DNA of 58,472 bases from an uncultured Candidatus Saccharibacteria bacterium (GTDB lineage Bacteria > Patescibacteriota > Dojkabacteria > SC72), in the NCBI GenBank assembly GCA_964405015.1, contig CAYOME010000002.1, positions 7,702-66,173 of the forward strand, in the 5' to 3' direction. Numbering within the stretch: position 1 is the stretch's first letter; the number at the start of each line of letters is the position of its first letter. This document shows, piece after piece, positions 6 through 35,901 of this stretch. Made by a program: the position numbers and the translations under genes. The notes under the pieces are model-generated. The model searched no databases. It was not told the DNA's origin and saw only the letters and a program-made list of their open reading frames with translations.

Positions 6-1064
6 GTGAAAATTGAAGAGTTTGAATACAATTTAAGTGAAGAACTTATAGCTAAGTACCCCCCAAAGGTTAGGGGTACTTCAAAGTTATTAGTATTAGA
101 TAGGGGGAATGGTGAAATATTTCATGACAGGTATTTTAATGTCCCAGAATATATTCATGAGGGGGATGTTGTAGTGTTGAATGAAACGAAGGTTCTCAAC
201 AGCAGAACTTTTTTTCTGACACCTAGGGGGAAAAGAATAGAGGTTCTTTTCTTGGAAAATATAGGAAATGATATTTGGTATGTTCTTATAGGAAGAGCTA
301 AGAATGTAAATGTCGGAGATATATTGGTTAATGAACAGGGTAAAGATGTGCAAATAAAAGTATATGAAAGAAGGGACAATGGATTTTTAATATCTTTTGT
401 TCATGGTACTAGCCATATTCTTTTTGAAAAATATGGCCATACACCTTTGCCACCATATATGAAAAGAAGTGATGAGAAAAGCGATAGAGAAAGGTATAAC
501 ACTGTGTTTTCTCGTATCGAAGGGGCTGTCGCTGCACCAACAGCGAGTTTAAACCTTACGGGTGAGATCTTAGAACAGATCCGAAAAAAGGGGGCTAAAA
601 TAGTCAAGGTAGAGCTTAGAGTTGGATGGGGAACTTTTGCGCCAATTCGTGATGAGAATATTGAAGATCACAAGATTCATACAGAATATATAAACATTCC
701 GAAATCAGTTGCAGATACTATCAATAATAGAAAAGGTAAGGTTTGGGCTTTTGGTACTACTGTTGCAAGAACTTTAGAAAGTGTGGCTTTTGAAAAAGAA
801 GGGAGATTTTTTGTAAAAGAATTCTCTGGAGATACTTCTCTTTATATCTATCCAGGATACAAATGGAAAATCGTTGATAATATGGTTACCAATTTCCATA
901 TGCCTGATTCCTCTTTGATTCTTTTGGTAAGTTCCTTTGCTGGAAAGAAATATATTTTAAAGGCTTACAATGAAGCTATCAAGAAAGGATATAAATTTTT
1001 AAGCTATGGAGATAGTATGATGATAACAAAAGAAATAAATAAATCTAGTAAGAAGAAAAAATAA
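6..1064 (+). CDS. queA: S-adenosylmethionine:tRNA ribosyltransferase-isomerase
   Basis: 352-aa ORF with GTG start. The N-terminus MKIEEFEYNLSEELIAKYPP and C-terminal FHMPDSSLILLVSSF...FLSYGDSMMI match QueA over the full length. tgt follows 2 nt downstream. Confidence 0.9.
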   Translation: MKIEEFEYNLSEELIAKYPPKVRGTSKLLVLDRGNGEIFHDRYFNVPEYIHEGDVVVLNETKVLNSRTFFLTPRGKRIEVLFLENIGNDIWYVLIGRAKNVNVGDILVNEQGKDVQIKVYERRDNGFLISFVHGTSHILFEKYGHTPLPPYMKRSDEKSDRERYNTVFSRIEGAVAAPTASLNLTGEILEQIRKKGAKIVKVELRVGWGTFAPIRDENIEDHKIHTEYINIPKSVADTINNRKGKVWAFGTTVARTLESVAFEKEGRFFVKEFSGDTSLYIYPGYKWKIVDNMVTNFHMPDSSLILLVSSFAGKKYILKAYNEAIKKGYKFLSYGDSMMITKEINKSSKKKK

Positions 1065-1066
1065 AG

Positions 1067-2119
1067 ATGGATACCCCAGGTCACTATAATAACCTTTCTC
1101 TCAAGCCATTAGATTTGACTAGGGTCTACCTGTTTATGCCGGATGCGACAAGGGGGGCTGTTAGGTATCTTACAACCAAGCAACTGGTTGAGACTGGAAC
1201 AAAAGCTATTGTTACTAATACTTTACATCTACTGATTCATCCAGGGCCAGATGTTGTTGAGAAGTTAGGTGGTATAAAACAGATGATGGGTTGGGATGGA
1301 TTAGTTTTAACTGATTCTGGAGGTTTTCAAGTTTTCTCATTGATTCATTCAAAAAAATGGAAGGGTAAAGTTCATGAAAATGGTGCGACTTTTAAATCTC
1401 CAAGAGAGGGCAATGTCTATGAATTAACTCCTGAGAGTTCTATAGATATCCAAATGAAGATTGGGTCTGATGTTTTAGTATGTTTGGATGATTGTAGAAA
1501 AACTGATTTAAACAAATATGAAGCTGAAATTTCTGTAGAAAGAACGATTAAATGGGCTCGAAGATGTAAAGATCATTTTGAAAAGGAGTATGGTGGAACT
1601 AAAAAGACTGGTAAACTCTTAACTAGTGTTGTACAGGGTGCGAATTTTCCAGATTTAAGAGCTGATTGTGCGAAGGCCTTAGTTGATATTGGTTTTGATG
1701 GTTACAATTTCGGAGGTTTTGTTGTTGATTCAGATGGTAGGTTAGTTGAAGATGAGCTGTCTGCTGTAATTGAGAATGTTCCAACTAGTACTATTAGATA
1801 TGCAATGGGTGTTGGTAAGCCAGAAGATATTTTAAAATGTGCGAAGATAGGGTATAACCTTTTTGATACAGTATTAGTAACGAGAAATGCTAGGCATGGA
1901 ACCCTATATACATCTGAGGGAGAAATTAGGCTTGGCAATAGTGATATGTCTTTAGATATGAGACCTGTAGATCCTAATTGTTCCTGTGAGTGTTGTAAGA
2001 ATTATTCTCGTGCATATCTTCATCATATGATGAAAAATGGTGAGGCTATTGCCTCGACTTTGGCAACTATTCACAATCTCACCTACTATCAAAGCTTAAT
2101 AAATAGTCTTAACTCCTAG
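1067..2119 (+). CDS. tgt: tRNA-guanine transglycosylase (queuine tRNA-ribosyltransferase)
   Basis: Carries LTDSGGFQVFSL, VCLDDC, MGVGKPEDIL and the zinc site CSCECC..H. An in-frame stop at 1049-1051 rules out a longer N-terminus. Confidence 0.9.
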   Translation: MDTPGHYNNLSLKPLDLTRVYLFMPDATRGAVRYLTTKQLVETGTKAIVTNTLHLLIHPGPDVVEKLGGIKQMMGWDGLVLTDSGGFQVFSLIHSKKWKGKVHENGATFKSPREGNVYELTPESSIDIQMKIGSDVLVCLDDCRKTDLNKYEAEISVERTIKWARRCKDHFEKEYGGTKKTGKLLTSVVQGANFPDLRADCAKALVDIGFDGYNFGGFVVDSDGRLVEDELSAVIENVPTSTIRYAMGVGKPEDILKCAKIGYNLFDTVLVTRNARHGTLYTSEGEIRLGNSDMSLDMRPVDPNCSCECCKNYSRAYLHHMMKNGEAIASTLATIHNLTYYQSLINSLNS

Positions 2120-4705: not shown

Positions 4706-5161
4706 TTAGTAATTCTTTTCTTCCAAGCTTAGGCTACATTCTAAGTACCATCTGTAATATTGTGCATCACTAACCATACCAGCTTTAACGGGATTATTGC
4801 GAATATAGTTTGAAACTAGTTGGAAACCTCTGTCTTTGGTTACATATCTTGCATGGAAAGGACGTTGAAATGTACTACCTACCAAATTGTATTTTTTGTT
4901 GAAATACTTCGAGTATGAAGTTGAGATTCTGTGCATATATTTTGAGAGTTCTTCTGGTTTTGAACCTGAAAATATTAGTAAATGAAAATGATTTGGCATG
5001 AGGCAATATGAATACAATACAAAATTATAATCTTTTTTTATTCTGAATATGGTATTCGCAAATCTAGCGAAATCATTCTGAGAAAGGAATATTTTGCATT
5101 TACGATTTCCTCTGTTATAGATATGATAAAAGCTGTTTGGATAGAGAATTCTTCTTGGCAT
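4706..5161 (-). CDS. IS200/IS605-type Y1 (HUH) transposase, REP-associated tyrosine transposase (RAYT)-like
   Basis: 151 aa with YHIYNRGN, the HUH motif MPNHFHLLI, and C-terminal SNYIRNNPVKAGMV typical of Y1_Tnp/RAYT proteins. No tnpB or other IS gene is adjacent. Confidence 0.8.
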   Translation of the reverse strand: MPRRILYPNSFYHIYNRGNRKCKIFLSQNDFARFANTIFRIKKDYNFVLYSYCLMPNHFHLLIFSGSKPEELSKYMHRISTSYSKYFNKKYNLVGSTFQRPFHARYVTKDRGFQLVSNYIRNNPVKAGMVSDAQYYRWYLECSLSLEEKNY

Positions 5162-8242: not shown

Positions 8243-8713
8243 TTATTCAATTTCAATTACTGTACATGAAGTGATACCTGCAGGGGTTTCAATTGTAAGT
8301 TGATCACCTTTTTCTTTCCCCATTAATGAACTACCAATTGGTGAGTTATATGAGATTTTTGAGTCTAAAGGATTAGCTTCATCTATACCAACAATATTGA
8401 AAGTTTTTTCTTTGCCTCCCTCACATTCAATAGTTACTTTGGAACCTATATCAATTTTTTCATTACTCTTTTTCTCTACAATTTCAGCCAATTCTAAACT
8501 CTGTTTTATTTCAAGTATTCTTTCTTCGTTGTTTTGAAAATCTTCGATAGCGATAGAGTAGCCATCGTTCTCTCTTAGATCTCCTTGGCTACGCATTTGA
8601 TTAAGAACATCTTGCAGGTCAGTTCTAATCTTACCCTCTCTCTCTTCTAGTTCTAATTTTAATTTTTTGAAACCTTCTTGTGTGAGCAGTACTTTTTTTG
8701 TAACTCCCGCCAT
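8243..8713 (-). CDS. greA: transcription elongation factor GreA
   Basis: 156 aa with a coiled-coil N-terminus carrying the acidic tip GDLRENDGY, and a C-terminal FKBP-like domain (SPIGSSLMGKEKGD). Confidence 0.85.
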   Translation of the reverse strand: MAGVTKKVLLTQEGFKKLKLELEEREGKIRTDLQDVLNQMRSQGDLRENDGYSIAIEDFQNNEERILEIKQSLELAEIVEKKSNEKIDIGSKVTIECEGGKEKTFNIVGIDEANPLDSKISYNSPIGSSLMGKEKGDQLTIETPAGITSCTVIEIE

Positions 8714-8845
8714 TTGAGTATTTCTTAAATTATACTCGTCGAATATTATATGTAATTAATTAGATTGTCAATTATTAAAAGCTTTTGTATCAATAATATA
8801 TGCATACTATTTCGCGTTTTTATGGTAAAATTCTTACCGAAATAT

Positions 8846-8920
8846 GCCGCTATCGTCTAACGGTTAGGACTCATGATTCTCAATCATGTAATCGGGGTTC
8901 GATTCCCCGTAGCGGTACCA
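8846..8920 (+). tRNA. tRNA-Glu (anticodon CUC)
   Basis: Manual cloverleaf: acceptor GCCGCTA/TAGCGGT, anticodon stem CATGA/TCATG with loop TTCTCAA, 4-nt variable loop, T-arm CGGGG-TTCGATT-CCCCG, encoded CCA. Confidence 0.85.
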
Positions 8921-8930
8921 ATACAAAAAT

Positions 8931-9608
8931 ATGATCAAATTTGATTTAATAACAATTTTCCCAGAGTCTCTTAAAGCGTATATAGATAGCAGTATTGTAA
9001 AAAGGGCCCAAGAGAAGGGATTAGTAGAGATAAATGTACATAATCTAAGAGATTGGAGTAACAGTAAGCACAAAAGTGTTGATGATACTCCATATGGTGG
9101 GGGACCAGGTATGGTCTTCATGCTAGAACCTATATTTAATGTACTTAGAGATTTGAAAAAGGAAGATACAAAGGTTCTTCTTACTTCACCAAAAGGTAAA
9201 AAATTAACACAAGATACTTTGTACGAATTCTCAAAAGGCAATGATTCCCACTATATAGTTCTTTGTGGTCACTATGAAGGATTTGATCAAAGAGTGCATG
9301 ACTACCTTGTAGACTATGAATTCTCAATAGGGGACTATGTACTTTCTGGGGGAGAGTTACCAGCATTGGTATTAGTAGATGGTATTACTAGGTTAATACC
9401 TGGGGTTTTGGGTAATGAGGATTCTCTTGGCTCAGAATCTTTTACAGATGGTATTTTAGATTTCCCTCAATATACCAAACCTTCAGAGTTTAATGGATGG
9501 AAAGTACCAGAGGTTCTACTTTCTGGAAATCACAAAGAGATAGAGAATTGGAGAAAGGATATGTCTCAAAAAGATACAATATCTAAAAGACCAGACATGA
9601 GTAAATAG
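8931..9608 (+). CDS. trmD: tRNA (guanine37-N1)-methyltransferase
   Basis: 225 aa. FDLITIFPE, DDTPYGGGPGMV, CGHYEGFDQRV and SIGDYVLSGGELPA are TrmD hallmarks. Confidence 0.9.
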   Translation: MIKFDLITIFPESLKAYIDSSIVKRAQEKGLVEINVHNLRDWSNSKHKSVDDTPYGGGPGMVFMLEPIFNVLRDLKKEDTKVLLTSPKGKKLTQDTLYEFSKGNDSHYIVLCGHYEGFDQRVHDYLVDYEFSIGDYVLSGGELPALVLVDGITRLIPGVLGNEDSLGSESFTDGILDFPQYTKPSEFNGWKVPEVLLSGNHKEIENWRKDMSQKDTISKRPDMSK

Positions 9609-9618
9609 TTTGCCCTTG

Positions 9619-9633
9619 TTTAGATAATCTAAA
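9619..9633. promoter_or_regulatory. 15-nt perfect palindrome upstream of the second greA-like gene
   Basis: TTTAGATAATCTAAA. The half-site TTTAGATA recurs at 9659-9666, just before the start at 9678. Confidence 0.25.
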
Positions 9634-9677
9634 TATTCTACAATCATATTAGAAATACTTTAGATATTTTCCCTCAT

Positions 9678-10148
9678 ATGAAAAAGCAACATTACAAGAT
9701 AACTGAAGAAAAAAAGTTCGAACTAGTTAGAGAGCTAGAGGAATTAAAGAATCTCAAATTAAAGGAAATAGCAGATAGGCTAGAAGAGACAAGAAAAGAG
9801 GACTTAAGTGAAGATGATATTCAGTTAGGAGAAATATTGGAAGAGAAAGAGTCTGTTGAAAATAGAATTGATGAAATTAATGATATATTAGCTAATGCTG
9901 AAATACTAGTAGAAAAAGATTACTGTGAACCTTACCAAGTAAAATTAGGGTCCACAGTGAAATTAAAGCAGGGGGAAAGGGTATTCGATATTAAGTTAGT
10001 ATCTTCACTAGAGGCAGATCCTGAGAAGAACTATATCTCAAACAAGTCTCCTTTGGGGAGGGTATTGCTCAAATCTAAATCTGGAGATACAGTACACGTA
10101 AAGATTAGGGATAATGTTACAGAATACAACATCTTGGATGTTTGTTAG
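9678..10148 (+). CDS. GreA-family transcription factor, second paralog
   Basis: 156 aa with the same coiled-coil plus C-terminal domain layout (SPLGRVLLKSKSGD) and tip motif EDLSEDD. Confidence 0.75.
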   Translation: MKKQHYKITEEKKFELVRELEELKNLKLKEIADRLEETRKEDLSEDDIQLGEILEEKESVENRIDEINDILANAEILVEKDYCEPYQVKLGSTVKLKQGERVFDIKLVSSLEADPEKNYISNKSPLGRVLLKSKSGDTVHVKIRDNVTEYNILDVC

Positions 10149-25796: not shown

Positions 25797-25873
25797 CGGG
25801 GTGTAGTTCAGTTGGCTAGAGCGCTTGCATGGGGTGCAAGAGGTCGCACGTTCAAGTCGTGTCACCCCGACCA
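25797..25873 (+). tRNA. tRNA-Pro (anticodon GGG)
   Basis: Manual cloverleaf: acceptor CGGGGTG/CACCCCG, anticodon stem CTTGC/GCAAG with loop ATGGGGT (G37), T-arm GCACG-TTCAAGT-CGTGT, encoded CCA. Confidence 0.85.
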
Positions 25874-25996
25874 ATTAAGACGAGACCCTCCCAAAGTATT
25901 GATACATAGGCATTATCAGTGTGATACATCATATGTATCAGATTTATCAAAATTTCAGTAAAGTAACGCAATATCCCTATATATAGGCATTTCCTC

Positions 25997-26015
25997 CGTT
26001 CAAGTCCTGTCAGGT
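25997..26015 (+). repeat. degenerate copy of the tRNA-Pro T-arm/3' half
   Basis: CCGTTCAAGTCCTGTCAGG versus tRNA ACGTTCAAGTCGTGTCACC. They share a 10-mer (CGTTCAAGTC) and TGTCA, about 125 nt downstream of the tRNA. Confidence 0.4.
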
Positions 26016-26081
26016 GTTATGCTGTTTTCTGTTCGTACAAATCGATATCCTTTGTTCATATAACTTTTTACACAATTATAT

Positions 26082-26315
26082 ATGGATAAGATGGATTTAA
26101 TAGATTCAGAGGTAACTCTGGATGAGCTATTTGAGTGGTTGAAGGACGAGATTGGAAAAGGGAACTTCCCGCAGTTCGAGAATAAATCAGATGGGGAGTT
26201 ACTTGAACTAATTAAGGTTGCGAAGCCTTTGATCGAGATTGAGCTAAAATTGGCTAATGCTTTTGCATGGGAGCAGATAAATTCGATTAAGAAAAAAGAA
26301 GAGAAGTTGATATAA
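26082..26315 (+). CDS. small acidic hypothetical protein
   Basis: 77-aa ORF immediately upstream of the ASCH gene. No recognised family. Confidence 0.35.
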   Translation: MDKMDLIDSEVTLDELFEWLKDEIGKGNFPQFENKSDGELLELIKVAKPLIEIELKLANAFAWEQINSIKKKEEKLI

Positions 26316-26323
26316 TACTTCAT

Positions 26324-26749
26324 ATGAACCACATAGCAATAATGAAAAAATCATGGGGCTTAATACCTAAGATAATTTCGGGCGAGAAAACAATCGAATC
26401 AAGGTGGTACAAAAATAGAATCGCACCTTGGGATCGAATCCACGAAGGGGATACTGTTTATTTTAAAGACTCTGGAGAACCAGTTTCAGCAGTTGCAAAA
26501 GTATCTAATGTCTTACAGTTTAGTAATCTCGACAAAAAGCAATTTACAGAAATTATGACTAAATATGCAGATCAAATCTGTCTCAAAACACGTGAGTACG
26601 ATGATTATTACAAATCGAAGAATTATTGCATTTTGATACTTCTAACTGAACCAAAAAGAGTAGAAAAAACTTTTAGTATAGACAAAACTGGATATGGTAT
26701 TTCATCAGCTTGGATGTGTGTTGAGGATGTAGAAAAGATAAAAAAGTAG
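26324..26749 (+). CDS. ASCH (PUA-like) domain protein
   Basis: 141 aa. IMKKSWGLIPKIISGEKTIESRW...GDTVYFK matches the ASCH N-terminal beta-barrel signature. Confidence 0.7.
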   Translation: MNHIAIMKKSWGLIPKIISGEKTIESRWYKNRIAPWDRIHEGDTVYFKDSGEPVSAVAKVSNVLQFSNLDKKQFTEIMTKYADQICLKTREYDDYYKSKNYCILILLTEPKRVEKTFSIDKTGYGISSAWMCVEDVEKIKK

Positions 26750-26835
26750 TAAAGCTTAGTCAAATCATTAATTCCCTTTCGGTAAACAAAACTTTACTAG
26801 ATTAACCTGTTTTAGTTAGATACAATTGTTTAGAT

Positions 26836-27543
26836 ATGAAGAATATACACGAAATACAACTAAACATTCTGAGAACGCTTTTATTTGCCAAATCAAAACG
26901 ATATTCAGAAATAAAACCAATTGACATGGAAGGTAGCCAGTTCAAATTCCATATGGACACCTTGATATCATCAAACTACATCGTAAAAGACTCAAAAGGA
27001 TTATATTCGTTAACACCTGATGGTAAAGAACTTGCTAACCAAATGGATTCAATAGAAATCCTAATGAAGAAGCAATCCAAGATTACCGCAAAGATATGTT
27101 GTATTAGAAGTATGAATGATGAAAATGAGTATCTTTTGTATAAGAGACTAAAAAATCCATTTTATGGCTCTCAGGGTTTTCCTAACTCAAAGATATGGTA
27201 TGGATCATCCTTTACTGAAGGAGCAAAAAGTGGACTATATAAAGAGACCAACTTAGTTGGTGAACCTGAACTATTCGCAATACGTCACTACACAGTATAT
27301 GACAAAAACAATGGGGATCTCTTAGAGGATAAAACAATGTTCCTCTTTAAAGTAATCAATCCTTCTGGTGAACTTCAAAGTAAAAAGGATGGTGAATTTT
27401 CATGGGTTAAGGAGTCAAATATATCTAACTTTGTGAAGAATCCGCTTCCTGAATTTCGTGAAGTTTTCCAATTATTGAATAAAACTCCTCAAATTGATTT
27501 CTTTAAAGAAGTTGCACACGAAGTTAATATAGATAATTTTTAG
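26836..27543 (+). CDS. winged-helix DNA-binding domain fused to a Nudix-like (degenerate box) domain
   Basis: N-terminal wHTH (IQLNILRTLLFAKSKRYSEI...LISSNYIV). The C-terminal region has a Nudix-fold-like pattern, GFPNSKIWYGSSFTEGAKSGLYKETNL. Confidence 0.5.
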   Translation: MKNIHEIQLNILRTLLFAKSKRYSEIKPIDMEGSQFKFHMDTLISSNYIVKDSKGLYSLTPDGKELANQMDSIEILMKKQSKITAKICCIRSMNDENEYLLYKRLKNPFYGSQGFPNSKIWYGSSFTEGAKSGLYKETNLVGEPELFAIRHYTVYDKNNGDLLEDKTMFLFKVINPSGELQSKKDGEFSWVKESNISNFVKNPLPEFREVFQLLNKTPQIDFFKEVAHEVNIDNF

Positions 27544-27553
27544 AAAAAGTAAC

Positions 27554-28510
27554 ATGAAAACGATAACAATCTGCGGAAGTATGCTATTCCATAAGGAAAT
27601 GACAAAGTTTAAAGAGATTCTTGAAGCAATGGGCTATCACGCTAATGCTCCAAAGTCTTTTGAGGAAATGGGGATCATTAATTACAATAAATACACTCAA
27701 GAGGAAGGGAAAGAATTAAAGATTAAGTATGATCTTATCAGAGATTACTATTTAAAAATTATTGATTCAGATTCAGTATTAATCGCAAATTACGAAAAGA
27801 AAGGCGTTAAAGGATATGTGGGAGGAAATACATTGTTAGAGATGGGTTTCGCTTATTCTAACCATAGAAATATATTTATGGTAAATCCTTCCCCTGATAT
27901 GCCCTATAAAGCGGAAATCGAAGCTATGCAACCAATTGTTATTGGAGAAGATCTTACACAAATTCAAAAGTATTTTGAAGCATTGCCAAAGGTCTTTGTA
28001 AGTTCTGATAACAGCATTAAAGTACAATCAGTTTCATTTAGTTTAAGGGAGAGTGGTTACAACTATGACGTTTTAGGTATTAAAACTTCATCTAAGGTTA
28101 GCGAGCAACCTATGAGCATTGATGAAACATATAATGGTGCAATGAATAGATTAGCAGACCTTAGAGAAAAAGTTAAAGATAAAAAGTATCAATATCTAGT
28201 CTCCATTGAGAGTGGATTGGCAAAATTACATAAGGATCATAATTATTTCAATGTGACGGTTTCCATTGTCGAGGACAGCGAAGGAAATTCAAAAACAAGC
28301 ATAGTATCTGATATCGAATTCCCTAAGGAGATGACAGACTTAGTACCAAGTAAGTATCCAGATTTGGGAGTACTTGTACAGAAAGAGTACAATTCAAAGT
28401 ATAAGGATCCATTTCAATATTATACGGATGGTAAAGTCAAAAGAATTGATTTACTGAAATACGCTGTTAAGAACACTTTGTCTCAATTTAAAACAAATCA
28501 AAATGATTAA
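27554..28510 (+). CDS. fusion protein: nucleoside 2-deoxyribosyltransferase/DNPH1-like N-glycosidase domain + YjjX-type inosine/xanthosine triphosphatase domain
   Basis: The N-terminal half has TICGSM...GYVGGNTLLEMGFAYSNHRNIFMV (compare DNPH1 FCGSIRGG...GVGYELG). The C-terminal half has SSKVSEQPMSIDETYNGAMNRL...SIESGL...TDGKVKR (compare YjjX [20 protein letters not shown]...AIEAGI). Confidence 0.6.
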   Translation: MKTITICGSMLFHKEMTKFKEILEAMGYHANAPKSFEEMGIINYNKYTQEEGKELKIKYDLIRDYYLKIIDSDSVLIANYEKKGVKGYVGGNTLLEMGFAYSNHRNIFMVNPSPDMPYKAEIEAMQPIVIGEDLTQIQKYFEALPKVFVSSDNSIKVQSVSFSLRESGYNYDVLGIKTSSKVSEQPMSIDETYNGAMNRLADLREKVKDKKYQYLVSIESGLAKLHKDHNYFNVTVSIVEDSEGNSKTSIVSDIEFPKEMTDLVPSKYPDLGVLVQKEYNSKYKDPFQYYTDGKVKRIDLLKYAVKNTLSQFKTNQND

Positions 28511-29462
28511 TGTTTTAGAATCACTTAAGAAGGTTTCTGAAAAACTTTCAAAGGTTGAAATCAACAATAATAAAATAGAAGAGTTTGCTACTAAAGTAAC
28601 CTCTGTTGATCTAAAGATCTCAGAGATTGCACTTGCAAAGTATGATTGGACCCTTGAGCAACTGATTGATTTAGTATTTACCTTCAATGTGATTAACTAT
28701 TGTTTTTGGGCAGAGAAAGACTCCCCGAAGTGGACTATTGAACTTGAAGGGAAAATGTTAGATGGCTCAATTGCATTGTTTAGAGCGTTAGAAGTGAAGA
28801 AAAAAGAAGTTGATTCTTTTACCACAGGTGAGTCTTTAGCGAACTTGTCTAGCAATGAGCTCGCAAGAATCCTAAAAGGTAATATAAAGATCCCATTATT
28901 CATGGAAAGGCTCAAAGGTCTTAATGAAACTGGTGGCGTTTTAATTTCAAAATACAATGGTAGATGGAGTAATGTATTAGAAGAATCACGAAATAATGCC
29001 AGTTTATTAGCGGAAATTCTTGCCGACAACTTCCTATCTTTTGAAGACAGTTCGATTTTTAAAGGTGAAAAAATTGGTTTCTACAAAAGGGCTCAATTGA
29101 ACTCTAAAATGATAAGTGATGCACGAGTATTAAAAGGTAGAAGTGAGTTAGCGGATCTAGCGAAATTAACAGCATTTGCTGATTACAAAGTACCGCAGAT
29201 CTTGAGATCACTGGAAATACTTGAATACTCGGAGGATTTTGCTAGTAAAATTGATTCTTTACATGTTATTGAAAAAGATTCAGATGAAGAAAATGAGATT
29301 AGAATTGCTACAATTTTGAGTGTAGAAAAAATGTTAGAGTTATTATCAGAAAAATTTTCAAACGTCACATCTTCACATGTTAATAGCTTATTATGGAATA
29401 AATCTCAGAATTTGAAACGCGATATTAATCCTTATCATAGGACATATACAACTGCTTACTAA
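28503..29462 (+). CDS. queuosine-salvage protein family (DUF2419/QNG1-like)
   Basis: 319 aa with FNVINYCFWAE and FADYKVPQILR motifs, as I recall them for PF10343. The start overlaps the upstream stop by 8 nt. Confidence 0.6.
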   Translation: MINVLESLKKVSEKLSKVEINNNKIEEFATKVTSVDLKISEIALAKYDWTLEQLIDLVFTFNVINYCFWAEKDSPKWTIELEGKMLDGSIALFRALEVKKKEVDSFTTGESLANLSSNELARILKGNIKIPLFMERLKGLNETGGVLISKYNGRWSNVLEESRNNASLLAEILADNFLSFEDSSIFKGEKIGFYKRAQLNSKMISDARVLKGRSELADLAKLTAFADYKVPQILRSLEILEYSEDFASKIDSLHVIEKDSDEENEIRIATILSVEKMLELLSEKFSNVTSSHVNSLLWNKSQNLKRDINPYHRTYTTAY

Positions 29463-29760
29463 CGATTTTTAAGCTTATTAAGGATTTTAGCAAAAGCGTA
29501 CCACAATATCTGGAACGGAAACAAAAACAAACTCATCAAACAGCCGTAATTCCTAAACCCCGAATTGTAATAAACACTCGCCCCTTTTCCTCTTCTGTAA
29601 ATCATAACAATCGCCCTAACAACTTAAATCTAAAGTTGGAAGCTCAAATAGGAACTTCCACTTGTACTCAAACTCTTTAACATATGAGATAATGCTATCA
29701 ATGAGAGGGAGAATCCGTTCGTACATAGTACGATCGCCCCGATTAATACAAACAAAACAT

Positions 29761-32682: not shown

Positions 32683-33501
32683 CTAAGGTGCTAATTGAAG
32701 CATCATGGGAGAACTCGCTAGTTGTACTAGCAAAATAGGAAACGATACAAACGGGGGGCTCATTAAGTAAGCACCTTGGTCTGATTCCCTATATTCCTCT
32801 AAAAGAGAATTGATATTTTCATTCATCAATTCCAATTCTTCTGGAGTAATGGGGGTTGCAACAATGACCAAAACCTCCCTATTTGGGAATCCGTATCCAT
32901 AGAGTACATTCCCACCAGCTGTTGCAAAGTAATATGCGGGCAGTGCCATATTTACTTCCGGTTGCTTTTGGGTTTCATTCATCTGAACCCACTTTGGCAA
33001 CAACACACCGCCTGGCCCACAATGGTAATTCCGGAAATTTTGATTTTCCGATTCTACAGCATCTGCCCAATTCTGGGAATTTTTTGGTTTAGACCTTTTT
33101 ACTTCTTCCGCAAAACCCTGTGTCTTTACCCTTGCTTCCGTCTTGTCGTTTCCTTGCAGTTTTTGTCCCCACGTACGGGATCGTTCTGTCTCGTACATGG
33201 TTGTACTGAAATCTTCTGCCGTATACGGGGAGGTTAAGAGATAGTGCTTGTTTTTTAGCACAATTTTAACTTCATTCCGGTAGTAAGTTACTGCAGGATC
33301 GTTGCTAATGATCAAATCTAGGATTTGATCGATAATATCCCAGTCGAGAGGGTGGTTCCCACAAAAATTGTGAGCCCACCAGTGTCCAGCTCTCGCTGGT
33401 TGCGCAGCAGCTGGGGCAATGGGCCCTGCAGCAGGAAGTGCTGCACAGCCATACAAACCGACCATCATTAAGATGGTCAACCCGGTTAATAACTTTCTCA
33501 T
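32683..33501 (-). CDS. lipoprotein of unknown function, compositionally foreign
   Basis: 272 aa with a signal peptide ending LYGC and a strong GGAGA SD. It is much richer in G+C and GC-ending codons than its neighbours. Confidence 0.65.
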   Translation of the reverse strand: MRKLLTGLTILMMVGLYGCAALPAAGPIAPAAAQPARAGHWWAHNFCGNHPLDWDIIDQILDLIISNDPAVTYYRNEVKIVLKNKHYLLTSPYTAEDFSTTMYETERSRTWGQKLQGNDKTEARVKTQGFAEEVKRSKPKNSQNWADAVESENQNFRNYHCGPGGVLLPKWVQMNETQKQPEVNMALPAYYFATAGGNVLYGYGFPNREVLVIVATPITPEELELMNENINSLLEEYRESDQGAYLMSPPFVSFPILLVQLASSPMMLQLAP

Positions 33502-34889: not shown

Positions 34890-35483
34890 ATGAAAGAAAA
34901 TCTGCTTAGAAAGATATTGTGCATACAAGGTGATGTACTTTTTAAAGAAGGTAAATGGAATGGTCTAAAGAGTACAGACTTAGAGAAATATCTAGAGTTA
35001 ATAAAGAGTAAGTCAGAGTTTAGAGTAAGGGATACTCTTGAACAGGATCCTTCATACAAACAAATAGTTGCACAAGTAATACTTAAATACAAAGATAAAT
35101 ATTACCTACATAGATTAGTTCAAAGAAATGAAGGAAGACTCAATGGACTATGTCCTTTACCACTAGGTGGACATATTGATGAGGTCAAGGATTACAAGGG
35201 TGATGACTTAGTGGAGCATGCTTTAATGCAAGAGCTAAGTGAAGAGGTTACACTTAATTCTAAAATATTAAGTAAAGAATTCTTGGGATTAATATATCTT
35301 GAAGATGAAAATCCTGTTAATCATTTACATGTAGGTTTTGTGTATGTATTTGAATTAGATGGTGATGATGTACATGTAAAAGAAGAGGGTTTGGAAGATA
35401 TTGGTTTTGTTAGTTTAGATTACCTAAAGACTAACAAAGAAGAATTAACATATTGGAGTAGAGTAGTAATATATCATTTATAG
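34890..35483 (+). CDS. Nudix-family hydrolase-like protein
   Basis: GGHIDEVKDYKGDDLVEHALMQELSEEVTL approximates the Nudix box. Confidence 0.55.
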   Translation: MKENLLRKILCIQGDVLFKEGKWNGLKSTDLEKYLELIKSKSEFRVRDTLEQDPSYKQIVAQVILKYKDKYYLHRLVQRNEGRLNGLCPLPLGGHIDEVKDYKGDDLVEHALMQELSEEVTLNSKILSKEFLGLIYLEDENPVNHLHVGFVYVFELDGDDVHVKEEGLEDIGFVSLDYLKTNKEELTYWSRVVIYHL

Positions 35484-35487
35484 CTAT

Positions 35488-35901
35488 ATGGAAGACTGTG
35501 TATTTTGTAAAATAATTAAGGGAGATATACCTTCATACAAGATATATGAAGACGAGTATGTAATATCTTTCTTAGATATTTCTCCAACAAGTAAGGGACA
35601 CACACTTGTAATACCTAAAAAACATTACAAGGATATCTTAGAAATATCAGAGGAAGATCTCTGTAATACAATGAAAGCTCTTAGAAAGGTATGTAGTAAT
35701 ATTAAGGAGAAATACAATCCTGAAGGATTTGTAATAAGGCAGAACAATGGAGAGAAAGCTGGTCAATCAGTATTCCATATTCACTTCCATATTAAACCAG
35801 TATATTCTGATACAAAAGTACTCTCTGATGAAGATAGTAGAACTACTTTTACTAATGAAGAGATGGGAGATTTTGTTAATCAATTAAAAATGATTAATTA
35901 G
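35488..35901 (+). CDS. HIT-family nucleotide hydrolase/transferase (Hint-like)
   Basis: CVFCKII and the histidine triad HIHFHIKP. Confidence 0.85.
   Translation: MEDCVFCKIIKGDIPSYKIYEDEYVISFLDISPTSKGHTLVIPKKHYKDILEISEEDLCNTMKALRKVCSNIKEKYNPEGFVIRQNNGEKAGQSVFHIHFHIKPVYSDTKVLSDEDSRTTFTNEEMGDFVNQLKMIN

What the first reader, a model, noticed from the sequence alone, without database searches (positions are those of the whole stretch)
25797..29760. tRNA-Pro-anchored accessory segment encoding a modified-nucleotide salvage/sanitation module
Housekeeping synteny stops directly after tRNA-Pro(GGG). A same-strand run then encodes a small acidic protein, an ASCH (PUA-like RNA/nucleobase-binding) protein, a wHTH::Nudix-like protein, a DNPH1/deoxyribosyltransferase-like::YjjX ITPase fusion and a DUF2419/QNG1-like protein. 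The last two genes overlap by 8 nt. Every recognisable domain acts on nucleotides or nucleosides: N-glycosidic bond cleavage of nucleoside 5'-monophosphates, hydrolysis of non-canonical NTPs, and a Nudix-type ligand pocket fused to a DNA-binding domain that could be the sensor or regulator. I do not know this combination as a described operon. The segment looks richer in CpG and G+C than the flanks. It lies between a tRNA gene and a 300-nt non-coding spacer, both carrying tRNA-3'-end-like fragments. In a reduced genome that must scavenge nucleotides, it could strip bases such as queuine or other 7-deazapurines, or damaged purines, from imported nucleotides. A nucleotide-targeting anti-phage role cannot be excluded.
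Basis: partly seen in the sequence, partly recalled or inferred. Interest (0 to 1): 0.7.

Follow-up and report, generated by a model that had tools for sequence, protein, structure and literature searches.

The report
Regulated nucleotide-cleanup operon in CPR bacterium
Next to a proline tRNA gene, this tiny-genome (CPR) bacterium carries a probably imported gene cluster that most likely breaks down unusual nucleotides into free bases and sugar-phosphate under its own nucleotide-sensing switch, and its "queuosine salvage" enzyme has lost the pocket that recognises queuine, so that annotation is probably wrong here.

Summary
tRNA-Pro(GGG) is followed by five same-strand genes, and every domain call holds at family or fold level: ASCH, wHTH plus Nudix-like, NDT/DNPH1-like fused to a YjjX NTPase, and PF10343/QNG1. 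The segment is not richer in G+C, but its CpG and GC3 are clearly higher than in the CpG-depleted flanks. The tRNA-like fragment claimed in the 3' spacer is at chance level.

New findings:
1. A palindrome, GTAAA-N6-TTTAC (26782-26797), lies 52-68 nt upstream of the wHTH-Nudix gene in 9 independent lineages, with variants in two more. The window copy has a degenerate Nudix box. Together these point to an NrtR-like sensor-regulator with reversed domain order.
2. The conserved core is operator, regulator, NDT-like gene, then QNG1-like gene. ASCH is loosely linked, and acid77 is strain-variable.
3. The QNG1-like enzyme keeps the residues for nucleoside-5'-monophosphate glycosylase chemistry. It has lost all six queuine-pocket residues and two of three relay residues, and it evolves under relaxed constraint.
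4. The window also encodes a preQ1-type TGT plus QueA.

Best reading (about 0.55): a horizontally acquired, self-regulated operon that disposes of or salvages non-canonical nucleotides. It is a new variant of known kinds.

The parts
25797..25873 (+). tRNA-Pro(GGG). It forms the left landmark of the compositionally atypical segment.
   Evidence: ARAGORN; Rfam RF00005, 56.4 bits. Metagenome contigs carrying the identical flanks break inside it: L171 ends at 25832 and L166/L167 start at 25844.
25900..25940 (.). Two tandem 19-bp palindromes, TGATAC-N7-KTATCA, in the strain-variable stretch. Function unexplained.
   Evidence: These are the only exact matches in the window. The region is absent from variant-B strains.
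25997..26012 (+). A 16-nt copy (15/16) of the tRNA-Pro T-arm. It is a possible integration or rearrangement scar, or a remnant of another tRNA gene.
   Evidence: repeat D18. It is the best non-self match to the tRNA 3' half in the whole window, score 27.
26082..26315 (+). Small acidic ORF (77 aa), strain-variable. It is not part of the conserved cassette.
   Evidence: No hit in Pfam, NCBIfam, PADLOC or PHROGs. Present only in contigs identical to the window. Variant-B strains carry type I R-M, DUF1801 and a 303-aa gene in its place. It has the most atypical composition of the run: GC3 0.47, CpG 0.91.
26324..26749 (+). ASCH-family (PUA-like fold) protein. It lies upstream of the operator and is loosely linked to the module.
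   Evidence: PF04266 at E = 0.0035 for this protein; 17 of 36 homologs hit PF04266 (best 1.7e-5). The family profile hits PDB 2z0t, 1s04 and 5guq. The SGEKTIESR motif is present. The gene is also linked to module genes in L030 and L109. pN/pS is 0 against variant B.
26782..26797 (.). Palindromic operator GTAAACAAAACTTTAC, the predicted binding site of the wHTH-Nudix regulator.
   Evidence: Single occurrence in the window. In 1.9 Mb of loci there are 18 exact hits against 4.2 expected, and 15 of them lie 52-68 nt upstream of wHTH-Nudix genes. That covers 9 independent lineages, plus variants in L147 and L092. DNA homology with L081 and L082 starts here.
26798..26826 (+). Promoter-like element: TAGATT, a 17-nt spacer, then TACAAT. 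It abuts the operator and ends 9 nt before the ATG.
   Evidence: Read from the alignment of upstream regions. The same geometry, TAGA(T/A)(T/A)-17-TA(C/A)AAT or TATACT, appears in the window, L165, L081, L082, L091 and L100. Inference only; it was not picked up by the consensus scan.
26836..27543 (+). wHTH (N-terminal) plus Nudix-like (C-terminal) protein, the predicted ligand-sensing transcription regulator. The Nudix box is degenerate in this clade.
   Evidence: HTH_45 at 4.7e-4 and NUDIX at 6e-3. The family comprises 27 clusters. The alignment shows SKIWYGSSFTEGAKSGLYKETNL here against GKVQYGERVQDTAKRELLEETHL in distant members. PDB profile 2b06 at 5e-8. AF2 pLDDT 88. Foldseek matches 2b06, the NrtR Nudix domain 3gz8, and MTH1. 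pN/pS 0.12.
27554..27988 (+). N-terminal domain of the fusion: a divergent member of the nucleoside 2-deoxyribosyltransferase/DNPH1 fold, predicted to be a (d)NMP N-glycosidase.
   Evidence: PF05014 at 0.0067-0.035, sub-threshold; 12 of 36 homologs hit it. AF2 pLDDT 93. Foldseek matches 2a0k, 8rqd, 4p5d and 6qai with probability 0.99-1.0. E96 is invariant within the GGNT-x-x-E-x-G-x-A motif. Family neighbours are Nudix, Maf, YfbR-like HD and RNR genes.
27989..28510 (+). C-terminal domain of the fusion: YjjX-type NTPase (the inosine/xanthosine triphosphatase family).
   Evidence: PF01931 at 1e-23, covering 2-161 of 162 profile positions. TIGR00258 at 3e-16. Foldseek matches 1zwy and 1u5w at E 1e-11 to 1e-12 with TM-score to target 0.80-0.86.
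28503..29462 (+). PF10343 (QNG1/DUF2419-family) nucleoside-5'-monophosphate N-glycosylase of an uncharacterised specificity subtype. It overlaps the fusion gene by 8 nt.
   Evidence: PF10343 at 2.4e-60. StQng1 (7uk3) at 1.4e-45. Residue mapping: the catalytic, ribose and phosphate residues are kept; the queuine pocket scores 0 of 6; the relay shows D69N and D207M; N294 stands at the D298 position. pN/pS 0.65. The gene is lost or truncated in L081 and L082.
29463..29760 (-). 298-nt spacer. It is conserved in relatives and holds two decayed coding-like blocks on the minus strand (29468-29608 and 29625-29729). It has no tRNA-like element.
   Evidence: 97% identity to L084 and 71% to L081. tblastx shows blocks in different frames or with stops. 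No intact homolog in any fetched locus. No Rfam hit. Similarity to the tRNA is at chance level.

Best explanation
The segment is a horizontally acquired, self-regulated operon of a CPR (Woesebacteria-like) bacterium that disposes of or salvages non-canonical or modified nucleotides.

Proposed mechanism:
1. The wHTH-Nudix-like protein has a catalytically degenerate Nudix pocket and so acts as a sensor. It binds the palindrome GTAAA-N6-TTTAC, which abuts the promoter in front of its own gene, and so controls the tightly packed genes downstream.
2. The YjjX-type domain dephosphorylates non-canonical purine NTPs of the ITP/XTP type.
3. Two N-glycosidases act on nucleoside 5'-monophosphates: the fused NDT/DNPH1-like domain and the translationally coupled QNG1-family enzyme. 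They cut the base from the sugar-phosphate and yield free base plus (deoxy)ribose-5-phosphate, both of which a cell without de novo nucleotide synthesis can reuse.
4. The ASCH protein just upstream probably acts on, or recognises, a modified nucleoside or RNA fragment that feeds the same route.

The QNG1-family enzyme here is not a queuine-releasing enzyme in the characterised sense; its base specificity is unknown.

Shown here: the domain and fold identities, the conserved gene order, the conserved operator, the residue replacements, and the composition. Inferred: the DNA binding, the ligand, all substrates, and the order of the steps.
For: - Domain and fold calls.
- The order wHTH-Nudix, NDT-like, QNG1, with 1-10 nt gaps or overlapping stop and start codons, recurs in the window clade and in L030, L038 (WWE3), L057 (Saccharimonadales) and L091. 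wHTH-Nudix is directly followed by QNG1 in L100 and L147.
- The operator is conserved at a fixed distance in 9 lineages, with variants in 2 more. There are 18 hits against 4.2 expected, and 15 of the 18 lie in front of the regulator gene.
- The Nudix box is degenerate in this clade but near-intact in distant members. The closest structures include the ADP-ribose-sensing Nudix domain of NrtR and the MTH1/MutT enzymes that bind modified purine nucleotides.
- The NDT-like family sits beside NTP/NDP-cleaving house-cleaning genes across CPR and DPANN: small Nudix (17 loci), Maf (6) and YfbR-like HD (4). It also sits beside RNR and CTP synthase in Saccharimonadia, and it occurs fused to YjjX, Nudix or a nucleotidyltransferase. 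This fits an enzyme that takes the NMP product of those enzymes.
- CPR QNG1-family genes most often neighbour a small intact Nudix (10 loci). They never neighbour tgt or a Q-precursor transporter.
- The QNG1 residues for catalysis, ribose and 5'-phosphate are invariant across 109 CPR members.
- Three of the four cassette genes are under purifying selection.
- Foreign-like CpG and GC3, with context differing in every relative, support acquisition.
Against: - No substrate is established for any of the four enzymes.
- The NDT-like domain falls below Pfam's threshold, and fold alone cannot separate a hydrolase of the DNPH1 type from a transferase of the NDT type.
- YjjX enzymes are reported to yield diphosphates (my own knowledge), so a further step, such as a Nudix hydrolase, would be needed to reach NMPs. 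The only Nudix in the operon looks inactive.
- QNG1 shows relaxed constraint here (pN/pS 0.65; Fisher P = 0.006 against the other genes) and is lost in L081 and L082. It may therefore be dispensable or decaying and not an integral step.
- The same window encodes TGT and QueA, which keeps a link to the queuosine pathway open.
- Linkage of QNG1 with the partner genes is found in only about 11 of 80 family loci.
- The CpG-normal signature is not unique to this segment; 51-58 kb shows it too.
Confidence: 0.55

Rival explanations
1. 7-deazaguanine (queuosine-precursor) salvage. The QNG1-family enzyme, possibly together with the NDT-like glycosidase, frees a Q-pathway base from scavenged nucleotides. 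The base would be preQ1, preQ0, or queuine that is later trimmed. It would feed the TGT-QueA pair encoded 24 kb upstream. The other genes support or regulate this route.
For: - The protein is a full-length PF10343 member, with E = 1e-45 to characterised StQng1 and the catalytic Asp/Lys, the ribose and phosphate contacts, and the C-terminal Tyr all conserved.
- The family (though not the window copy) keeps D298, which reads the guanine-like edge of the base.
- The window encodes TGT and QueA but no preQ1-synthesis genes among the ORFs I annotated.
- A transporter encoded next to a bacterial qng1 unexpectedly carried preQ0/preQ1 and not Q (PMC11130926), so family members linked to smaller 7-deazaguanines are plausible.
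Against: - All six residues of the queuine 7-substituent pocket are replaced, as are D69 and D207 of the relay proposed to activate a 7-deazapurine leaving group.
- The window copy has N294 at the base-reading Asp and evolves under relaxed constraint.
- The TGT is of the preQ1 type (C158 and V233 kept) and sits next to QueA, so queuine itself could not be used directly.
- No tgt, YhhQ-type or ECF-type transporter recurs beside CPR family members.
- No abundant natural source of preQ0 or preQ1 nucleotides is known (my own knowledge).
- QNG1 is dispensable in sister lineages that keep the rest of the module.
Confidence: 0.2
2. Deoxynucleotide supply and not clean-up. The NDT-like domain is a true deoxyribosyltransferase, or a dNMP-processing enzyme, that rebalances scavenged deoxynucleosides for DNA synthesis. 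The YjjX domain guards the pool, and the QNG1 and ASCH genes are incidental neighbours.
For: - In 15-19 of 29 Saccharimonadia genomes the fusion lies directly after the ribonucleotide reductase beta and alpha genes, with CTP synthase nearby.
- The best N-domain structural hits include genuine nucleoside 2-deoxyribosyltransferases, 2a0k and 6qai.
- CPR bacteria cannot synthesise nucleotides (abstract of bioRxiv 10.64898/2026.07.13.738296, listed).
Against: - In the window clade and four other lineages the NDT-like gene is translationally coupled to a QNG1-family NMP glycosylase and shares a dedicated regulator with it. It is not next to RNR.
- Its recurrent fusion and neighbour partners are NTP/NDP pyrophosphatases, whose products are NMPs and not nucleosides.
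- As far as I recall, the N-terminal CGS motif looks more DNPH1-like than NDT-like. This was not tested.
Confidence: 0.12
3. Anti-phage defence. The module depletes or destroys nucleotides, for example modified or 7-deazapurine nucleotides that phages need, when the sensor detects infection.
For: - The segment is accessory-like, and in variant-B strains it lies directly downstream of a type I R-M system.
- The ASCH protein has weak hits to the PADLOC candidate PDC-M11B (1e-4) and to phrog_3136 (2.5e-5).
- Nucleotide-depleting defences are a known class (my own knowledge).
Against: - No PADLOC hit for the regulator, the fusion or QNG1.
- No QNG1-family gene and only one NDT-like gene in 2.9 million viral contigs, which gives no sign of an arms race.
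- Orthologs of the fusion sit in housekeeping nucleotide-metabolism neighbourhoods.
- There is no abortive-infection effector, nuclease or NTPase sensor of the usual kinds.
- The module is widespread in genomes too small to carry many defence systems.
Confidence: 0.06

Closest known systems
Qng1/QNG1 (DUF2419, PF10343), the queuosine-5'-monophosphate N-glycosylase (S. thermophilus StQng1, human C9orf64; PMC9881137)
   Same: Full-length homology (E = 1e-45). The HhH Asp nucleophile (D231 equivalent D227) and Lys (K199 equivalent K195) are kept, as are the ribose contacts (F75, Y232, W302), the 5'-phosphate contacts (K233, Q306, R80->K) and the C-terminal Tyr whose carboxylate enters the active site. 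It therefore very probably performs the same chemistry on a nucleoside 5'-monophosphate.
   Different: All six residues lining the queuine 7-substituent pocket are replaced by small or aliphatic residues (P46, W48, H53, Y93, W94, W299). Relay residues D69 and D207 become N and M, and the window copy has Asn at D298. A control clade in the same search keeps the StQng1 signature. The genomic partners are Nudix and NDT-like genes, not tgt or transporters.
NrtR, the Nudix-related transcriptional regulators of NAD metabolism (PMC2330246)
   Same: A Nudix-fold effector domain with a degenerate catalytic box is joined to a winged-helix DNA-binding domain. The NrtR Nudix domain (3gz8) is among the top structural matches. 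A palindromic operator lies in front of the regulator's own operon.
   Different: The domain order is reversed, with wHTH at the N-terminus and Nudix at the C-terminus. The operator motif is different. The regulated genes are nucleotide N-glycosidases and an NTPase, not NAD genes. Among the named hits the family is confined to CPR bacteria (27 clusters). The effector is unknown.
DNPH1 (Rcl) 2'-deoxynucleoside 5'-monophosphate N-glycosidase and nucleoside 2-deoxyribosyltransferases (PF05014 superfamily)
   Same: The fold matches (Foldseek 8rqd and 4p5d with TM-score to target about 0.6; 2a0k; 6qai). A Glu is invariant in a G-G-N-x-x-x-E-x-G motif, at the position where these enzymes carry their catalytic Glu; that equivalence comes from my own knowledge and was not checked by superposition.
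   Different: Sequence similarity is below Pfam's threshold, and no PDB sequence hit appears even with a family profile. The domain is fused to a YjjX NTPase here and stands alone in most CPR and DPANN genomes. Its substrate and its reaction type (hydrolase or transferase) are unknown.
YjjX / VC0702 inosine/xanthosine triphosphatase (PF01931, NTPase_I-T)
   Same: Strong profile match over the whole domain and a close fold match, with TM-score to target 0.80-0.86.
   Different: It occurs as the C-terminal half of a two-domain protein. It scores below NCBIfam's equivalog cut-offs (60 bits against 117), so it is a divergent member.
ASCH domain proteins (PF04266; for example PH0355, the Z. mobilis ASCH ribonuclease, and E. 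coli YqfB N4-acetylcytidine amidohydrolase, the last recalled from my own knowledge)
   Same: The family profile hits the ASCH-fold structures 2z0t, 1s04 and 5guq. The GxKxxExR-type motif SGEKTIESR is present.
   Different: The window protein is below Pfam's cut-off (18.5 bits against 21.2). Its activity is unknown, and it lies outside the operator-controlled core.
tRNA-gene-associated genomic islands
   Same: It is adjacent to a tRNA gene and has atypical CpG and GC3. Gene content next to the tRNA varies between strains, and a short copy of the tRNA T-arm lies nearby.
   Different: There is no integrase or other mobility gene. There is no tRNA-3'-end direct repeat at the distal boundary, and no empty site was found.

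Membership tests
Qng1/QNG1 (PF10343), queuosine-5'-monophosphate N-glycosylase | Full-length sequence membership of PF10343 and homology to characterised StQng1 and HsQNG1 | tested here: met
   PF10343 at 204.9 bits against a cut-off of 25. StQng1 7uk3 at E = 1.4e-45 over residues 6-319, and human 7ugk at 1.2e-35.
Qng1/QNG1 (PF10343), queuosine-5'-monophosphate N-glycosylase | HhH-motif catalytic Asp (D231) and Lys (K199), plus the C-terminal Tyr carboxylate in the active site | tested here: met
   D227, K195 and the C-terminal Y319 in the window protein. All three are invariant in 109 CPR members. Their roles are taken from PMC9881137.
Qng1/QNG1 (PF10343), queuosine-5'-monophosphate N-glycosylase | Ribose and 5'-phosphate contacts (F75, Y232, K233, Q306, R80) | tested here: met
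   F68, Y228, K229 and Q302 are kept. R80 becomes K76, a conservative change found in 109 of 109 members.
Qng1/QNG1 (PF10343), queuosine-5'-monophosphate N-glycosylase | Hydrophobic/aromatic specificity pocket for the queuine 7-substituent (P46, W48, H53, Y93, W94, W299) | tested here: not met
   The window protein has S40, I42, Y47 (a poorly aligned position that is a gap in the second alignment), S89, I90 and S295, so none of the six residues is kept. The same holds across the CPR clade. A control clade (L123, L126, L158 and others) keeps the StQng1 residues.
Qng1/QNG1 (PF10343), queuosine-5'-monophosphate N-glycosylase | Proton-relay network D69-N72-D207, and D298 which reads the base edge | tested here: not met
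   N62, N65 and M203, so only N72 is kept. The window has N294 where 107 of 109 family members keep Asp.
Qng1/QNG1 (PF10343), queuosine-5'-monophosphate N-glycosylase | Releases queuine from Q-5'-MP and is inactive on AMP, GMP, CMP and UMP | not testable with these tools
   This is an enzyme-assay property (PMC9881137).
Qng1/QNG1 (PF10343), queuosine-5'-monophosphate N-glycosylase | Operates with a queuine-accepting TGT | tested here: not met
   The TGT at 1067-2119 keeps Cys158 (DDC) and Val233 and sits next to QueA, which marks the preQ1 type. The residue-to-specificity rule comes from my own knowledge; the paper that would support it (PMC3660597) was listed but not read.
YjjX / NTPase_I-T (PF01931) | Profile match above the curated cut-off, and the YjjX fold | tested here: met
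   84.4 bits against a cut-off of 25, covering profile positions 2-161 of 162. Foldseek matches 1zwy, 1u5w and 1u14 at E 1e-10 to 1e-12 with TM-score to target 0.80-0.86. It is below NCBIfam's equivalog cut-offs.
YjjX / NTPase_I-T (PF01931) | ITP/XTP-specific phosphatase activity | not testable with these tools
   Needs an enzyme assay.
Nucleoside 2-deoxyribosyltransferase / DNPH1 superfamily (PF05014) | Profile match above the curated cut-off | tested here: not met
   14.7-17 bits against a cut-off of 28.8. 12 of 36 family members give sub-threshold hits (best 2.8e-5). The family profile gives no PDB sequence hit.
Nucleoside 2-deoxyribosyltransferase / DNPH1 superfamily (PF05014) | Flavodoxin-like NDT/DNPH1 fold | tested here: met
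   AF2 model with pLDDT 93. Foldseek matches 2a0k (E = 1.8e-3), 8rqd, 8rpt, 4p5d and 6qai with probability 0.99-1.0 and TM-score to target 0.48-0.62.
Nucleoside 2-deoxyribosyltransferase / DNPH1 superfamily (PF05014) | Catalytic Glu nucleophile | tested here: inconclusive
   E96 is invariant in 34 fusion proteins and 36 standalone proteins. Its equivalence to the catalytic Glu of DNPH1/NDT is inferred from motif resemblance and was not checked by residue-level superposition.
ASCH domain (PF04266) | Profile match and ASCH fold relatives | tested here: inconclusive
   The window protein scores 18.5 bits against a cut-off of 21.2. 17 of 36 homologs match (best 1.7e-5). The family profile hits 2z0t (3.4e-4), 1s04 and 5guq. 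No structure was predicted.
NrtR-type Nudix-related transcription regulators | Nudix-fold effector domain with a degenerate catalytic box | tested here: met
   In the window copy five of the six signature positions are substituted.
NrtR-type Nudix-related transcription regulators | Domain order: N-terminal Nudix, C-terminal winged helix | tested here: not met
   The wHTH occupies residues about 5-76 and the Nudix-like domain residues about 82-230. The NrtR domain order is taken from PMC2330246.
NrtR-type Nudix-related transcription regulators | Conserved palindromic operator upstream of the regulated operon | tested here: met
   GTAAA-N6-TTTAC lies 52-68 nt upstream in 9 lineages, plus 2 variants. 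Actual binding was not tested.
NrtR-type Nudix-related transcription regulators | Controls NAD metabolism genes and responds to ADP-ribose | tested here: not met
   The regulated genes are NDT-like, YjjX and QNG1-family, and no NAD gene is adjacent in any locus. The effector cannot be tested here.
tRNA-integrated genomic island | Integrase or recombinase gene | tested here: not met
   None between 25874 and 29760. The only transposase in the window is the IS200-type gene at 4706-5161.
tRNA-integrated genomic island | Direct repeat of the tRNA 3' end at the distal boundary | tested here: not met
   The spacer's similarity is at chance level. The only real copy (25997-26012) lies 148 nt from the tRNA.
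tRNA-integrated genomic island | Composition unlike the host, and variable presence or context | tested here: met
   CpG and GC3 differ. The effect is not intrinsic to the cassette. Context differs in L081, L082 and L165. No empty site could be recovered.
Known anti-phage defence systems (PADLOC) | Match of the component proteins to a described system | tested here: not met
   The only hit is ASCH to the candidate PDC-M11B at 1e-4.

The most novel reading that the evidence does not exclude
PF10343 may not be a single-function 'queuosine salvage' family. It may be a radiation of nucleoside-5'-monophosphate N-glycosylases with different base pockets. The CPR subtype, together with a DNPH1-like glycosidase and a new reversed-order Nudix-wHTH sensor-regulator, would then form a previously unrecognised pathway. 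Ultra-small bacteria would use it to harvest a specific non-canonical base from scavenged nucleotides, under direct nucleotide-sensing control. Candidate bases are a preQ0/preQ1-type 7-deazaguanine that feeds their own TGT-QueA, or xanthine/hypoxanthine downstream of the fused XTP/ITPase. The Asp-to-Asn change at the base-reading position would fit the second option.
Probability: 0.2. Interest if true: 0.75.

Novelty: new variant of a known kind. Interest (0 to 1): 0.55.

Why it matters
CPR bacteria make up a large share of bacterial diversity, cannot make their own nucleotides, and live on scavenged material. How they sort usable from harmful nucleotides is poorly understood. This locus offers three concrete, testable leads.

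1. It defines a new family of nucleotide-sensing transcription factors with a known operator, which is rare for CPR, where almost no regulons are defined.
2. It shows that proteins routinely annotated 'queuosine salvage family protein' in CPR genomes lack the queuine pocket. Metabolic reconstructions that infer queuine salvage from this annotation are therefore probably wrong for these organisms.
3. It reveals a widespread DNPH1-like family in CPR and DPANN, often fused to or next to NTP pyrophosphatases. That arrangement suggests a two-step NTP to NMP to base route for clearing or recycling non-canonical nucleotides.

None of this changes a paradigm, but each point can be tested directly with recombinant proteins.

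Tried and rejected
- **Higher G+C in the segment:** rejected. It is 0.328 against a window mean of 0.324.
- **tRNA-like fragment in the 3' spacer:** rejected by Rfam and by a Smith-Waterman scan against the whole-window background.
- **The 48-aa minus-strand ORF in the spacer as a real gene:** rejected. It is not conserved as a protein in L081, which has an in-frame stop. Within the clade its amino-acid identity is lower than its nucleotide identity, and no intact homolog appears in 1.9 Mb of loci.
- **The palindromes at 25900-25940 as the regulator's operator:** rejected. That stretch is absent from variant-B strains, which keep the cassette. The truly conserved site is 26782-26797.
- **The fusion plus QNG1 pair as the conserved unit:** rejected. 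29 species-representative genomes carry the fusion with no QNG1 within 10 kb. The recurrent unit is wHTH-Nudix, then NDT-like, then QNG1.
- **High CpG as an intrinsic property of the cassette:** rejected. In relatives the cassette's CpG equals that of its flanks.
- **Empty-site test:** failed.
- **Contig breaks at 25832 and 25844 as evidence of integration:** rejected as uninformative. They are more simply explained by the tRNA sequence being shared between organisms in the sample.
- **Phage origin or defence role:** no support from PADLOC, PHROGs or viral contigs.
- **Sigma-70 promoter and terminator scan:** not enriched over shuffled sequence.
- **Family profile of the NDT-like domain against PDB sequences:** found nothing.
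- **Literature searches** linking Qng1/DUF2419 with CPR, Nudix or deoxyribosyltransferase: found nothing relevant.

Full report
**1. What is at the coordinates**

ARAGORN finds tRNA-Pro(GGG) at 25797-25873. A local Rfam scan confirms it at 56 bits; the whole-window gathering-mode scan had missed it. Five ORFs follow on the + strand:
- acid77, 26082-26315
- a 141-aa protein, 26324-26749
- a 235-aa protein, 26836-27543
- a 318-aa protein, 27554-28510
- a 319-aa protein, 28503-29462

wecB (PF02350, TIGR00236) most plausibly starts at 29761, which leaves a 298-nt gap. Named homologs place the organism in the Patescibacteria/CPR, closest to Woesebacteria.

**2. Domain calls**

Two calls are strong for the window proteins themselves: PF10343 Q_salvage (E = 2.4e-60) and PF01931 NTPase_I-T (E = 1e-23, residues 151-312). 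The other four are below Pfam's cut-offs for these proteins (ASCH 0.0035, HTH_45 4.7e-4, NUDIX 6e-3, PF05014 0.035), so I tested each at family or fold level.

- **ASCH.** A search of the 1.84-billion-protein library found 971 relatives. 17 of 36 aligned homologs hit PF04266. The family profile hits the ASCH-fold structures 2z0t and 1s04 and the Z. mobilis ASCH ribonuclease 5guq. The consensus carries SGxKTIESRW.
- **Nudix.** The family is small, with 27 clusters. Its profile hits MutT/Nudix 2b06 at 5e-8. An AF2 model (pLDDT 88) matches 2b06, the ADP-ribose-binding Nudix domain of NrtR (3gz8, ranks 2 and 4) and many MTH1 structures.
- **NDT/DNPH1-like domain and YjjX.** The AF2 model of the fusion has pLDDT 93 and pTM 0.88. 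Its C-terminal half matches YjjX/VC0702 (E 1e-10 to 1e-12, TM-score to target 0.80-0.86). Its N-terminal half matches T. brucei and L. mexicana nucleoside 2-deoxyribosyltransferases and human and rat DNPH1 (probability 0.99-1.0, TM-score to target 0.48-0.62). 12 of 36 standalone homologs give sub-threshold PF05014 hits, and the family profile finds no PDB sequence. A Glu (E96) in a GGNT-x-x-E-x-G-x-A motif is invariant.

Three of the families are divergent branches.

**3. Is the combination conserved?**

Starting from the fusion, I fetched 80 loci from species-representative genomes.
- The 29 loci with a full-length fusion, mostly Saccharimonadia, have no QNG1 within 10 kb. Instead the fusion lies directly after ribonucleotide reductase beta and alpha in 15-19 of them, with CTP synthase and a G6PD-like gene nearby.
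- The N-domain also occurs alone in many CPR and DPANN genomes. There it sits beside small Nudix hydrolases (17 loci), tandem paralogs of itself (11), Maf (6) and YfbR-like HD proteins (4). It is also found fused to Nudix or to a nucleotidyltransferase.
- In L030, L038 (WWE3) and L057 (Saccharimonadales) the order wHTH-Nudix, standalone N-domain, QNG1 is the same as in the window, with 1-nt gaps or overlapping genes.

For the reciprocal test I fetched 80 QNG1-family loci from metagenomes. Partner genes lie near QNG1 in about 11 of them: L091 has the full run; L100 and L147 have wHTH-Nudix directly followed by QNG1; L109 has QNG1 followed by ASCH. The commonest direct neighbour in the CPR clade is a small Nudix with an intact box (10 loci). 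No tgt and no Q-precursor transporter recurs.

The conserved core is therefore wHTH-Nudix, NDT-like, QNG1. The YjjX fusion and ASCH are lineage-specific additions.

**4. A conserved operator**

I aligned the 150 nt upstream of wHTH-Nudix genes from lineages whose proteins are only 35-50% identical. One conserved element emerged: the palindrome (A)GTAAA-N6-TTTAC(T).
- In the window it occurs once, at 26782-26797, 54 nt before the ATG.
- In 1.9 Mb of fetched loci the exact pattern occurs 18 times against 4.2 expected from composition. 15 of those lie 52-68 nt upstream of a wHTH-Nudix start, covering 9 independent lineages.
- L147 has a one-mismatch version. L092 has a symmetric variant, GTGAAATCAATTTCAC, at the same place.
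- The three unassociated hits lie inside unrelated ORFs.
- In most lineages the palindrome is followed directly by TAGA(T/A)(T/A), a 17-nt spacer, and TA(C/A)AAT or TATACT. In the window these are 26798-26803 and 26821-26826, and the −10-like hexamer ends 9 nt before the ATG.
- DNA homology between the window and L081/L082 begins exactly at the palindrome.

The Nudix box supports a sensor role. It is near-intact in distant members (GKVQYGERVQDTAKRELLEETHL in P0243) but reads SKIWYGSSFTEGAKSGLYKETNL here, which loses five of the six signature positions (the motif definition is from my own knowledge). Together with the structural resemblance to NrtR, this supports a ligand-sensing, probably autoregulatory transcription factor. 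NrtR has the opposite domain order and controls NAD genes (PMC2330246). DNA binding itself was not tested.

**5. The QNG1-family enzyme is not a standard queuine-releasing enzyme**

The protein aligns end to end with S. thermophilus Qng1 (E = 1.4e-45). I took the residue roles from the structural paper (PMC9881137) and mapped them onto the window protein and 109 CPR relatives.

Kept:
- the nucleophile D231 and the Lys K199
- Y232, K233 and Q306
- F75 and W302
- the C-terminal Tyr
- R80, conservatively changed to K

Replaced:
- every residue of the pocket for the queuine 7-substituent: P46->S, W48->I/L, H53->variable, Y93->A/S, W94->I/T/V, W299->S/D/N
- D69->N and D207->M, two residues of the network proposed to activate the 7-deazapurine leaving group

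In addition, the window copy has N294 where 107 of 109 relatives keep the base-reading Asp.

An internal control shows that the alignment is sound. A non-CPR clade in the same metagenome search, which has MurE/MraY synteny, keeps the StQng1 signature. Several intermediate signatures also exist.

StQng1 and human QNG1 do not cleave AMP, GMP, CMP or UMP, so their specificity resides in that pocket. I conclude that the chemistry is conserved (N-glycosidic cleavage of a nucleoside 5'-monophosphate) but the base is probably not queuine.

Between the window and the 97%-identical variant-B strain, pN/pS is 0 for ASCH, 0.12 for the regulator, 0.16 for the fusion and 0.65 for QNG1. That is 15 nonsynonymous and 6 synonymous changes in QNG1 against 11 and 23 in the other three genes pooled (Fisher P = 0.006). 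QNG1 is reduced to an internally deleted remnant in L081 and is absent in L082. In this clade the gene is the least constrained part of the module.

**6. Queuosine context**

Annotating the rest of the window showed QueA (6-1064, E = 2e-105) and TGT (1067-2119, E = 1e-105). The TGT keeps Cys158 and Val233 (the assignment of these residues to preQ1 specificity is from my own knowledge) and sits next to QueA, so it should insert preQ1 and not queuine. Its GGFVVDS motif, in place of GGLAVGE, is unusual. No other que gene is among the ORFs I annotated.

This keeps a link to 7-deazaguanine salvage open. A transporter encoded next to another bacterial qng1 unexpectedly carried preQ0/preQ1 (PMC11130926). 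It argues against simple queuine release, however.

**7. Accessory or core?**

Total G+C is unremarkable, but CpG observed/expected is 0.58-0.91 for acid77 through QNG1. Among the flanking genes I tabulated it is 0.07-0.46, apart from memb197 (0.55) just upstream of the tRNA and the outlier hyp272 (0.64). GC3 is 0.28-0.47 against 0.17-0.26, again apart from hyp272 (0.42). The segment has 79 CG dinucleotides against 42 expected (P = 2e-7). The five genes rank 1, 2, 3, 4 and 6 of the 29 genes tabulated.

The effect is not intrinsic to the cassette. In relatives its CpG equals that of its flanks. The other CpG-normal block in the window is a glycosyltransferase, ATP-grasp and methyltransferase cluster at 51-58 kb, which is typical accessory DNA.

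Context differs in every relative. Among near-identical strains there are two variants:
- **Variant A** equals the window, continuing through to wecB.
- **Variant B** carries an XRE-like gene, a type I R-M system, DUF1801 and a 303-aa gene in place of acid77. Homology starts at 26323, one base before the ASCH start codon.

Against an island: there is no integrase, no distal att-like repeat, and no recoverable empty site. The 16-nt T-arm copy at 25997-26012 is real but unexplained.

I read the segment as relatively recently acquired DNA in a rearrangement-prone spot next to the tRNA. I do not read it as a classical integrase-borne island.

**8. The spacer**

The 298-nt gap is 97% identical in L084 and 71% identical in L081, where it follows the QNG1 remnant. 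tblastx shows two minus-strand blocks, in different frames or interrupted by stops. The 48-aa ORF is less conserved as protein than as DNA, and no intact homolog exists in the fetched loci. It looks like a decaying gene remnant that has travelled with the cassette.

**9. Alternatives**

- **Defence:** PADLOC gives only a weak ASCH hit to a candidate family. PHROGs gives only a weak ASCH hit. No QNG1-family gene and only one NDT-like gene occur in 2.9 million viral contigs.
- **Deoxynucleotide supply:** the RNR linkage in Saccharimonadia suggests this. It remains possible for the fusion, but it does not explain the coupling to QNG1 and the dedicated regulator.
- **Q-precursor salvage:** this is the most interesting rival. 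See section 6.

**10. Verdict**

The best-supported reading is a horizontally acquired, self-regulated operon for disposing of or salvaging non-canonical nucleotides (confidence about 0.55).

The genuinely new elements are three:
- a CPR-specific wHTH-Nudix regulator family with a defined operator
- a PF10343 subtype without the queuine pocket
- a widespread divergent DNPH1/NDT-like family, here fused to YjjX

The papers I could search describe none of these.

Noticed in passing
window 6-2119: QueA (6-1064) and TGT (1067-2119) lie adjacent at the start of the window. The TGT keeps Cys158 and Val233 but has GGFVVDS where bacterial enzymes have GGLAVGE, so the Glu235 position is Ser. That is an unusual variant of a well-studied active-site segment.
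   Followed up: partly
window 4706-5161 (-): An IS200-type Y1 transposase (PF01797, E = 1.7e-13) sits in a moderately CpG-rich patch at 4-8 kb.
   Followed up: no
window 25900-25940: Two tandem 19-bp palindromes, TGATAC-N7-KTATCA, lie between tRNA-Pro and acid77. They are the only exact matches in the window. They differ from the wHTH-Nudix operator and are absent from variant-B strains.
   Followed up: partly
whole window; 17-24 kb, 35-43 kb and 47-50 kb against 25-30 kb and 51-58 kb: CpG depletion is strong but patchy. Observed/expected is 0.1-0.3 in the first three blocks and 0.6-0.8 in the segment studied and in a glycosyltransferase, RimK-like and methyltransferase cluster at 51-58 kb. 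The cause of the depletion is unknown.
   Followed up: partly
window 32683-33501 (-): A 272-aa hypothetical protein has G+C 0.444 and GC3 0.42. It is the strongest G+C outlier in the window and has no Pfam domain.
   Followed up: no
window 34890-35901: A second Nudix protein (PF00293, above the cut-off) is directly followed by a HIT-family nucleotide hydrolase, 5 kb downstream of the module. The Nudix gene contains no CpG at all.
   Followed up: no
window 8243-10148: Two GreA/GreB-family paralogs on opposite strands flank tRNA-Glu (8846-8920) and TrmD (8931-9608).
   Followed up: no
L002-L029 (Saccharimonadia loci), around position 10000: The NDT-like::YjjX fusion lies directly downstream of the class I ribonucleotide reductase beta and alpha genes in 15-19 of 29 species-representative genomes, often with CTP synthase and a G6PD-like gene after it.
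   Followed up: partly
L085-L164: PF10343 proteins fall into several discrete active-site signature types: St-like with D/D at the relay positions and an aromatic pocket; N/M with no aromatics; N/H; N/D; and N/M with three aromatics. This suggests several substrate specificities within the 'queuosine salvage' family.
   Followed up: partly
L165 1-8926: Variant-B strains carry an XRE-like HTH gene, a type I R-M system with an extra 122-aa gene and a DUF3644 gene between hsdM, hsdS and hsdR, then DUF1801 and a 303-aa protein whose stop overlaps the ASCH start codon.
   Followed up: partly
L053 8474-9431; L099 79-1038: QNG1-family genes are split into two adjacent ORFs, which suggests frameshifts or pseudogenes. 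Together with the deletion remnant in L081, this indicates frequent decay of this gene in CPR.
   Followed up: no
window 25797-25873: Tool behaviour: the whole-window Rfam scan at gathering threshold reported only tRNA-Glu and missed tRNA-Pro. The same tRNA scores 56 bits, well above the 29-bit threshold, in a local scan.
   Followed up: yes
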